A DNA stretch of 64,000 nt from Rhynchopus sp. YZ270_cl-10 (lineage: Eukaryota). Shown piece after piece: positions 62,225 to 62,857 of this stretch (positions within the stretch are counted from its first letter, which is position 1; every line of letters begins with the position of its first letter). The notes under the pieces were generated by a model that did not search any database, was not told the origin of the DNA, and saw only the letters and a program-made list of their open reading frames with translations. The stretch lies in assembly GCA_964035575.1 (NCBI GenBank), contig OZ037840.1, positions 930,001 to 994,000 of the forward strand, read 5' to 3'. The translations under genes were made by a program, and so were the position numbers.

Positions 62225-62857
62225 ATGGCCGACAAAAAAAATTTGACTGATCTGAACAAGACACTGCAGACCCAGGCTTACGTTTCGGGCACTGCACCGT
62301 CGAAGGCTGACTCTGAGGCGTCTGACGCACTCTTTGGGGACAACATGAAGGCGATGCGCTGGGCTGCGAACATGGCTTCGTACTCTGCTGCCGAGCGCAA
62401 ATCGTTCACCACTGCCGCTGCCTCTACCAGCACCTCCAAGGCAGACACACCCACCCCCGCACCCAAGAAGCGCAAGATCGAGATGACCAAAGCCGCCTGC
62501 CGCCGTGCCATTGGAGGTGCCGAAGGTCTTGTCGACAACTCGCCCCTCGAGGATATCCAAAGCCGCGAAATCAAATGGACCTCGAACAAGGTGCGCCAGG
62601 TCTTCGTCGACTTCTTCAAAGAGAAGAAGACCAACAACGGCGAGAAGATCCCCTTCCACGCCTCCTCCCCCTCGGTCCCCCTCGACGACCCGACCCTGCT
62701 CTTCACCAACGCAGGCATGAACCAATTCAAGAAAATCTTCCTTGGCACCATCGACCCCACCGACAAGATGGTTGGCATGAAGGGCGCAACCAACTCCCAG
62801 AAATGCGTCCGTGCTGGAGGAAAGCACAACGACCTGGACGACGTCGGGCGGGACACA

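What the first reader, a model, noticed from the sequence alone, without database searches (positions are those of the whole stretch)
62225..62407. Alanyl-tRNA synthetase fused to an EF-1beta N-terminal (GST-C-like) domain
Seen: the first 61 aa read ..LTDLNKTLQTQAYVSGTAPSKADSEASDALFGDNMKAMRWAANMASYSAAERKSF, followed by an Ala/Thr/Pro linker and the AlaRS core from ~aa 118. Established (motifs recalled): EF-1beta/eEF1B-alpha N-domains follow LN..L...SY..G..PS.AD...RW..H..S, kinetoplastid forms continue with ..ER..W, and the domain docks onto EF-1gamma. GST-like appendages are known on MetRS, GluRS/EPRS, ValRS and CysRS; I know of none on AlaRS. Inference: AlaRS may be tethered to the eEF1B or multi-synthetase complex, channelling Ala-tRNA to eEF1A.
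Basis: partly seen in the sequence, partly recalled or inferred. Interest (0 to 1): 0.78.

Follow-up and report, generated by a model that had tools for sequence, protein, structure and literature searches.

The report
Elongation-factor docking tag on alanyl-tRNA synthetase
In diplonemids (marine protists related to trypanosomes) the enzyme that loads alanine onto tRNA begins with a small domain related to, and likely borrowed from, a translation elongation factor 1B subunit; the same domain heads several other tRNA-handling proteins and likely plugs them into the elongation-factor complex.

Summary
Confirmed and extended. The window is a diplonemid. Residues 1-61 of its AlaRS are an EF1B-alpha-type N-terminal mini-domain: a profile built only from EF1B subunits scores it 57 bits (shuffles at most 11), the best solved-structure match is human EF1B-alpha N (5DQS), and the model shows the three helices of that domain. 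A contig from a public run joins the spliced leader 17 nt before this ATG and runs unbroken into the core, so the domain is in the mRNA. 8 of 12 diplonemid AlaRS records carry it, in both Diplonemidae and Hemistasiidae; kinetoplastid and Euglena enzymes do not. The domain groups with one of two euglenozoan-type EF1B subunit forms, and that form also heads a Diplonema GlnRS, AIMP1/MCP1-like, YbaK/MCP3-like and B3/4-domain proteins: a reusable tag on tRNA-handling proteins. Binding to EF1B-gamma is inferred from homology, not shown; no diplonemid EF1B-gamma was available. Separately, two green-lineage AlaRS carry a larger GST-type domain (one clearly EF1B-gamma-like). Ten full-text searches found no description. 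New variant of a known kind (GST-family appendages; vertebrate ValRS-EF1B).

The parts
62003..62188 (+). Pyrimidine tract: (CCCCT)n array of about 29 copies (62003-62147) and a T/C-rich stretch before the splice acceptors
   Evidence: role as polypyrimidine tract inferred from kinetoplastid trans-splicing
62205..62207 (+). CAG trans-splice acceptor that receives the spliced leader; 17-nt 5' UTR 62208-62224 follows
   Evidence: run X5 contig, loose 5' end joined at 62207; AG positions
62225..62407 (+). EF1B-alpha-type N-terminal mini-domain (aa 1-61): predicted helices 4-16, 27-37, 41-52, short helix 55-59; N-cap box S26-x-x-D29; R45-W46
62408..62503 (+). Variable Ala/Thr/Pro/Lys linker (aa 62-93) with an in-frame Met87 at 62483
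62504..62566 (+). Second diplonemid-only motif (aa 94-114, R.IGG.EG..D..P), kept also in the three records that lack the mini-domain
   Evidence: present in 11 of 11 diplonemid rows, absent in 4 of 4 other euglenozoan rows
62576..64000 (+). Alanyl-tRNA synthetase core, runs off the window
   Evidence: PF01411 E 1.5e-149; P0002 also has PF07973

Best explanation
The diplonemid alanyl-tRNA synthetase starts with a 60-residue domain of the EF1B-alpha N-terminal type, present in the trans-spliced mRNA, which likely docks on the GST-like domain of EF1B-gamma and so would tie the enzyme to the factor that reloads eEF1A with GTP. Shown: the fusion, its mRNA, its conservation, and its kinship with one EF1B subunit form. 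Inferred: (1) the domain was copied from that subunit once, in the diplonemid ancestor, and lost or not recorded in two lineages; (2) it keeps the only function known for its family, binding EF1B-gamma through the loop before the N-cap helix and the last long helix; (3) on a 30-50 residue flexible linker the synthetase then hands Ala-tRNA to freshly recharged eEF1A, as vertebrate ValRS does for Val-tRNA, which would also shield Ala-tRNA(Ala) from promiscuous deacylases of the MCP1/MCP3 kind; (4) since the same tag heads GlnRS, AIMP1/MCP1-like, YbaK/MCP3-like and B3/4 proteins, these likely share the same docking site, making EF1B-gamma a hub for a synthetase and editing complex.
For: Kinship: EF1B-only profile, 45-69 bits on 8 of 8 domains; 40-48% identity of the window domain to the four closest EF1B subunits; 38-row clade, support 99/92, holding all 8 AlaRS domains and 5 of 12 GEF-bearing EF1B rows. 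Model: pLDDT 87.7, three helices plus a short one, as described for EF1-beta GST-like domains (PMC10813123, passages). The two segments by which human EF1B-alpha touches gamma, D21-V29 and C50-I59 (PMC9458455, passages), align on window aa ~16-24 and ~41-50 (alignment), where G22, M41, W46 and A47 are invariant in 8 of 8. Domain identity to the window copy is 38-55% in 7 of 7 relatives across two families while the linker does not align: kept under selection. mRNA. Of 10 non-GEF proteins other than AlaRS in the clade that are long enough to show a second domain, 6 carry tRNA-handling domains. Trypanosomatid eEF1B holds alpha, beta and gamma subunits (PMC10950700, passage); ValRS-eEF1B channels Val-tRNA (PMC9458455, passage); T. 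brucei AlaRS protects Ala-tRNA(Ala) from MCP3 (PMC11286415, passages).
Against: No binding data of any kind. The arginine of helix alpha7 that is described as essential for GST interface 2 (PMC10813123) is at its usual place in only 2 of 8 AlaRS domains (window, Namystynia); it is also missing in 5 of 5 of the closest EF1B subunits, and 7 of 8 AlaRS domains have an Arg one turn later, so the geometry may differ from 5DQS. The invariant residues include the N-cap and core residues that any such fold needs, so conservation does not single out a partner. 3 of 12 diplonemid records lack the domain, so it is dispensable or an isoform. 4 of the 10 non-GEF carriers have no tRNA-handling domain (FKBP, a triple repeat, two unknowns). 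A review warns that sequence alone does not predict complex membership (PMC4394549, passage). T. brucei AlaRS and GlnRS join a synthetase complex without such a domain (PMC8319005, PMC11286415).
Confidence: 0.55

Rival explanations
1. The tag docks on a GST-like domain of the multi-synthetase complex (AIMP1/MCP1 or MetRS), not on EF1B-gamma; it is an EF1B-derived part reused for assembling the synthetase complex apart from EF1B.
For: The carriers match the membership list of the T. brucei complex (AlaRS, GlnRS, MCP1, MCP3; PMC4394549, PMC11286415). P0240, named AIMP1 by its source, has the tag, a weak GST_C_2 match (E 0.07) and a tRNA-binding domain. Trypanosomatid MetRS and MCP1 have GST-like domains (PMC9136112, PMC8319005).
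Against: The scaffold-like P0240 carries the tag itself, which fits a client of a further hub better than the hub. The tag stays 40-48% identical to true EF1B N-domains; Plasmodium GST-like pairings are highly specific and EF1B-gamma does not enter them (PMC9136112).
Confidence: 0.22
2. Tags bind each other (AlaRS dimer, or AlaRS tag with the N-domain of an EF1B subunit or another tagged protein) through the alpha7 face.
For: Tandem copies exist (P0223 three, P0235 and P0266 two). Interface 2 is a pseudo-symmetric alpha7-alpha7 contact (PMC10813123). The N-terminal 66 residues of T. brucei MCP3 mediate homodimers (PMC11286415).
Against: T. brucei MCP3 is 261 aa with its catalytic Lys at 118; P0245 is 332 aa with a Lys at 190 in the matching motif (by eye), so the T. 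brucei dimer domain likely matches the segment after the tag, not the tag (inference; the T. brucei sequence was not in hand). Tandem tags fit a multivalent ligand of a hub as well.
Confidence: 0.1
3. The domain mainly governs localisation: the single AlaRS gene serves cytosol and mitochondrion, the long form is held in the cytosol, and a short form from a Met in the linker is imported.
For: D. papillatum has one AlaRS, DIPPA_17145 (= P0221), scored cytosolic, that must also serve mitochondria (PMC12699882, Table 3 passage). 4 of 4 Diplonemidae carriers have a Met between domain and core; the R. euleeides and Flectonema records start in that zone. Alternative trans-splicing does this for trypanosomatid synthetases (PMC8319005). 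Arc1p anchors yeast synthetases in the cytosol (PMC12021450).
Against: 4 of 4 hemistasiid carriers have no such Met. The AGs between the domain and Met87 have no pyrimidine run over 5, and X5 gave one contig with one leader join (contigs drop rare forms). Anchoring still needs a partner, so this adds to rather than replaces the best explanation.
Confidence: 0.08
4. A chance fusion without function, or a gene-calling artefact.
For: Missing from the nearest relative, R. euleeides, and from the Flectonema pair.
Against: In the mRNA, in five EukProt records with transcript-assembly names and the D. papillatum gene model, 38-55% conserved beside an unalignable linker.
Confidence: 0.05

Closest known systems
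Vertebrate ValRS-eEF1B complex (eEF1H)
   Same: A synthetase with an N-terminal GST-family appendage that ties it to the eEF1A exchange factor for hand-to-hand transfer of charged tRNA (PMC9458455, PMC4394549).
   Different: ValRS carries a whole 210-residue EF1B-gamma-like GST fold and binds eEF1B-beta; here a class II enzyme carries the 60-residue counterpart from the GEF subunit, predicted to bind gamma. Binding is shown for ValRS, not here.
eEF1B-alpha (EF1-beta) N-terminal domain, PDB 5DQS chain D
   Same: Homologous three-helix mini-GST domain with N-cap box; the gamma-contact segments align.
   Different: Attached to AlaRS instead of the CAR and GEF domains; shorter alpha5-alpha7 link; the alpha7 Arg is shifted in 6 of 8 AlaRS copies.
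Arc1p-GluRS-MetRS, Plasmodium tRip and human MSC GST-like cores; CysRS GST isoform
   Same: GST-family domains on synthetases and AIMPs assemble tRNA-handling complexes (PMC9136112, PMC10813123).
   Different: Those use whole GST folds on MetRS, GluRS, GlnRS, CysRS, ValRS and AIMPs; none listed on AlaRS and none of the three-helix kind in the passages read.
Trypanosoma brucei multi-synthetase complex (MetRS, ProRS, GlnRS, AlaRS, TrpRS, AspRS, MCP1-3)
   Same: Sister-group complex whose members AlaRS, GlnRS, MCP1 and MCP3 are the kinds of protein that carry the tag here.
   Different: Trypanosomatid AlaRS and GlnRS have no appended feature (PMC8319005; for AlaRS); how that complex assembles is described as unknown (PMC9136112).

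Membership tests
EF1B-alpha-type N-terminal (mini-GST) domain | Sequence homology to N-domains of GEF-bearing EF1B subunits | tested here: met
   E 6e-5; 12 of 62 scanned hits bear EF1_GNE, best E 9e-16; 56.6 bits, shuffles at most 11.1
EF1B-alpha-type N-terminal (mini-GST) domain | Three helices, no thioredoxin subdomain | tested here: met
   model pLDDT 87.7, helices 4-16, 27-37, 41-52 (+55-59); a prediction, made with EF1B relatives in the alignment
EF1B-alpha-type N-terminal (mini-GST) domain | Structural superposition on 5DQS chain D or GST-C domains | tested here: inconclusive
   all Z at or below 3.3; 5dqs_D Z 2.2, rmsd 2.2 over 39 residues; no Foldseek match
EF1B-alpha-type N-terminal (mini-GST) domain | N-capping box S/T-x-x-D before helix alpha5 | tested here: met
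   8 of 8; D29 invariant in 45 of 45
GST interface-2 binder | Arg on helix alpha7 just before the conserved Trp | tested here: inconclusive
   R45 present in the window protein; 2 of 8 AlaRS domains have it, 7 of 8 have Arg four residues later, each has one of the two; closest EF1B subunits 0 of 5
eEF1B complex component | Binds the GST-like domain of EF1B-gamma | not testable with these tools
   no euglenozoan EF1B-gamma sequence was obtained; needs co-purification
Pfam PF21972 Arc1p_N_like | Gathering score 27 bits | tested here: not met
   26.0 bits, E 1.2e-5, aa 3-37 only; true EF1B subunits of this form also fall short (P0234 20.3 bits)
Eukaryotic cytosolic-type AlaRS | PF01411 catalytic and tRNA-recognition region plus PF07973 editing domain | tested here: met
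   tree places it with diplonemid enzymes, 100/99
Multi-synthetase complex member | Stable association with other synthetases and an AIMP | not testable with these tools
   only shared domain content was seen

The most novel reading that the evidence does not exclude
Diplonemids and some other euglenozoans turned the N-domain of one EF1B subunit into a transferable plug, grafted repeatedly on AlaRS, GlnRS, an AIMP1/MCP1-like scaffold, YbaK/MCP3-like and B3/4 editing-type proteins, so that synthetases and proofreaders assemble directly on EF1B-gamma: a multi-synthetase complex and eEF1B merged on one hub, with EF1B capture of AlaRS arising again in green algae from the other half of the interface.
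Probability: 0.35. Interest if true: 0.78.

Novelty: new variant of a known kind. Interest (0 to 1): 0.62.

Why it matters
GST-family appendages are the known glue of synthetase complexes, but the lists in the papers read name MetRS, GluRS, GlnRS, CysRS, ValRS and AIMPs, all with whole folds. Here the small GEF-side half of the EF1B alpha-gamma interface sits on a class II enzyme and on a set of proteins that mirrors the trypanosome synthetase complex, whose assembly is unexplained. It gives a direct test of tRNA channelling and of how synthetase complexes arise: one 60-residue deletion in the single AlaRS gene of D. papillatum, with natural minus-domain enzymes (R. euleeides, Flectonema, trypanosomatids) as controls. 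It also bears on how one nuclear AlaRS is shared between cytosol and mitochondrion.

Tried and rejected
No genome is held for this window, so paralogues, EF1B subunits and EF1B-gamma of this organism could not be read. No RNA holder was on record; runs X1, X2, X4, X6 gave no leader join, X3 ran into upstream genomic sequence, X5 gave the join. With the better model Foldseek found nothing and VIA gave Z at or below 3.3: no structural proof either way. Complex prediction of the window domain with the EF1B-gamma-like GST domain of P0183, a stand-in from another lineage, gave no verdict (score 0.00, alignments not used); it is no evidence for or against. The word-based search for longer proteins returned only the 8 AlaRS and missed the EF1B subunits, crowded out by long candidates. 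Metagenome scan: 1 locus of 601 pattern matches, scan cut at 57 of 64 parts; viral scan 0 of 7. ESM Atlas gave leads at 0.88-0.90 only. Supplements of PMC12699882 (3 files held as text) had no hit for DIPPA_17145, alanyl or elongation factor 1. Earlier findings: none. Three repetitive hits (P0236, P0257, P0264) were dropped before the tree. The 42-row tree is a quick tree; the 62-column domain tree has 43 of 68 forks open and an unsettled bootstrap, so the number and order of grafting events is not resolved. Rejected: mitochondrial presequence (conserved globular EF1B homologue; enzyme scored cytosolic in D. papillatum); leader added downstream of the segment; two adjacent genes misjoined (no stop, one contig).

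Full report
Observation. The stored full protein P0002 (903 aa) adds the editing domain PF07973. The closest named relatives are diplonemids (Rhynchopus euleeides 75% over the core, Flectonema neradi, Sulcionema specki), and a careful tree puts the enzyme in a 12-row diplonemid clade (100/99), sister to R. euleeides (100/99).

The segment is in the mRNA. There is no ATG in any frame between 61900 and 62224, and three AGs (62189, 62206, 62209) follow a pyrimidine tract. Of six runs laid, one, X5, gave a 3727-nt contig whose first 20 letters lie on nothing in the stretch, join at 62207 and continue to 64000 with no gap or difference. Together with the shared G, the last 20 letters agree at 18 of 20 places with the 3' end of the T. 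brucei leader primer printed in PMC2916883 (passage), and the 20 loose letters occur once in the window, at 11609-11628, inside a leader-like copy at the head of a retroelement. So the leader is spliced to CAG 62205-62207, 17 nt before the ATG. X5 is not on record as RNA; that it is RNA is my inference from the join, the length, and the fact that X2 and X3 of the same study run on into upstream DNA. It may be the same isolate as the window. In run X4 the sequence before 62185 differs from the window, so the upstream tract is not the same in every holder.

Distribution. A search with aa 1-240 found the extension in Lacrimia lanifica, Diplonema ambulator, D. papillatum (DIPPA_17145), Namystynia, Artemidia, Hemistasia and one environmental record. 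In that record's contig an in-frame stop lies 27 nt before the ATG. The profile matched 11 of 222 stored records, all of them these genes or their cluster mates, and nothing else below E 0.27. Of 12 diplonemid rows 8 carry the domain, 3 lack it (R. euleeides, F. neradi, P0004) and 1 starts inside the core (S. specki); the label needs 3 changes on the tree, which fits one gain and two losses. Absence in those three may instead be a short isoform or an incomplete record. Neobodo, trypanosomatid, PhM4 and Euglena enzymes lack it, as a published survey says for trypanosomatids (PMC8319005, passages). D. papillatum has this one AlaRS only, scored cytosolic (PMC12699882, Table 3 passage).

What the domain is. 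Alone it matches PF21972 just under the cut-off and human EF1B-alpha N, 5dqs_D, as the only PDB hit (E 0.2); the 8-sequence profile brings that to E 6e-5. Against 1.84 billion representatives it found 63 proteins; of the 62 new ones 12 bear the EF1 exchange domain, the best at E 9e-16 and named elongation factor 1-beta by its source. To avoid circularity I built profiles from GEF-bearing proteins only: four of the closer form score the 8 AlaRS domains 45-69 bits, five of the other form 25-43 bits, shuffles at most 11 and 4, and none of the 11 AlaRS without the domain scores above 6. A domain tree of 71 stretches (3 repetitive hits dropped) has one supported clade of 38 (99/92) with all 8 AlaRS domains and 5 of the 12 EF1B rows, apart from a second supported clade of 19 with another EF1B form. 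With 45 sequences the model reaches pLDDT 87.7 and has helices 4-16, 27-37, 41-52 and 55-59, the three-helix, thioredoxin-less form described for EF1-beta (PMC10813123, passage).

A reusable tag. The same clade holds the N-termini of a D. japonicum GlnRS (P0252), an AIMP1-named protein with a tRNA-binding domain (P0240), two YbaK/MCP3-like proteins from different sources (P0245, P0248, 46% identical), two proteins with a MetRS-type anticodon domain and a B3/4 domain (P0243 Artemidia, P0255), and four without tRNA-handling domains: a D. ambulator unknown (P0244), P0232, an FKBP fusion and a triple repeat. GlnRS and AIMP1 rest on one representative each and could be misassemblies. AlaRS, GlnRS, MCP1 and MCP3 are all members of the T. 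brucei synthetase complex (PMC4394549, PMC11286415, passages). Outside the clade, a SerRS C-terminus with WHEP carries a related domain at its end (P0282).

How it likely works. The only function known for this domain family is binding the GST-like domain of EF1B-gamma. In 5DQS the contact runs through D21-V29 and C50-I59 (PMC9458455, passage), which align on window aa ~16-24 and ~41-50, among the best kept columns. I therefore infer docking on EF1B-gamma, with the linker letting the enzyme pass Ala-tRNA to eEF1A as it leaves the exchange domains, as reported for ValRS. A motive is at hand: trypanosome MCP1 and MCP3 hydrolyse cognate Ala-tRNA(Ala), and AlaRS protects it (PMC11286415, PMC12021450, passages). 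Against: the alpha7 Arg called essential for this interface is in place in 2 of 8 AlaRS domains and 0 of 5 closest EF1B subunits, although each AlaRS domain has an Arg there or one turn on; the conserved residues also serve the fold; three records lack the domain; and no euglenozoan EF1B-gamma was in hand to test. Docking on an MCP1 or MetRS GST domain is the main rival; self-association and isoform-based localisation are lesser ones.

Comparison and novelty. It works like vertebrate ValRS-eEF1B, but with the opposite half of the interface. They do not match the diplonemid profile: separate origin. Ten full-text searches (open-licence PMC and bioRxiv only) listed no paper on an EF1B-type domain in AlaRS or on such a tag; I read passages, not whole texts, of 12 papers (PMC4394549, PMC11286415, PMC9136112, PMC9458455, PMC10452860, PMC12699882, PMC8319005, PMC12021450, PMC10813123, PMC10161547, PMC2916883, PMC10950700) and searched the held supplements of PMC12699882 only; the D. 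papillatum genome paper's supplements were not seen and subscription journals are not covered.

Verdict. Real, expressed, conserved fusion; domain identity secure; partner inferred (0.55 for EF1B-gamma). New variant of a known kind, interest 0.62; the merged-hub reading has probability about 0.35 and would deserve 0.78.

Noticed in passing
window 11592-18155 (+): A near-complete spliced-leader exon sits in the genome (11592-11629, not followed by GT), ahead of a 697-aa ORF (11714) and an RT plus RNase H ORF (14826-17891) and an A-rich tail near 18085-18155: looks like a full-length retroelement copy made from a trans-spliced RNA.
   Followed up: partly
window 62504-62566: Second diplonemid-only N-terminal motif in AlaRS (R.IGG.EG..D..P), in 11 of 11 diplonemid rows and 0 of 4 other euglenozoan rows; function not examined.
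   Followed up: partly
P0183, P0164 (protein hits): Green-lineage AlaRS with an N-terminal GST-type domain; P0183's is closest to EF1B-gamma. An independent link of AlaRS to EF1B parts.
   Followed up: partly
P0282, P0270 (hits): SerRS C-terminal fragment plus WHEP with an EF1B-N-like domain at the C-terminus (P0282); P0270 looks similar by eye. Organisms unknown.
   Followed up: partly
P0244, P0265 (hits): A 265-aa family without Pfam or PDB match, with an acidic C-terminal end, that carries one form of the tag in D. ambulator and the other form in P0265 (35% identical).
   Followed up: partly
beyond window end (P0002 aa 903): The stored protein stops about 190 residues short of its relatives, as does P0004 nearer its end; probably introns missed by the gene caller.
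   Followed up: no
window 8322-34694 (+): Tandem family of about six genes for ~700-aa membrane proteins (8322, 21261, 24340, 26764, 29543, 32862); the two scanned carry an adenylate/guanylate cyclase domain; one copy is interrupted after 209 aa and the retroelement lies between the first two.
   Followed up: partly
window 36778-50810 (+): Paraflagellar-rod-domain gene (36778), cytochrome P450 (40041), PhyH dioxygenase (35163) and three tandem ~404-aa beta-propeller-like genes (45098, 47253, 49599).
   Followed up: no
window 62185, run X4: A contig of another holder (study P3) leaves the window's sequence upstream of 62185, just before the first AG, so the tract before the gene differs between isolates or alleles.
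   Followed up: no
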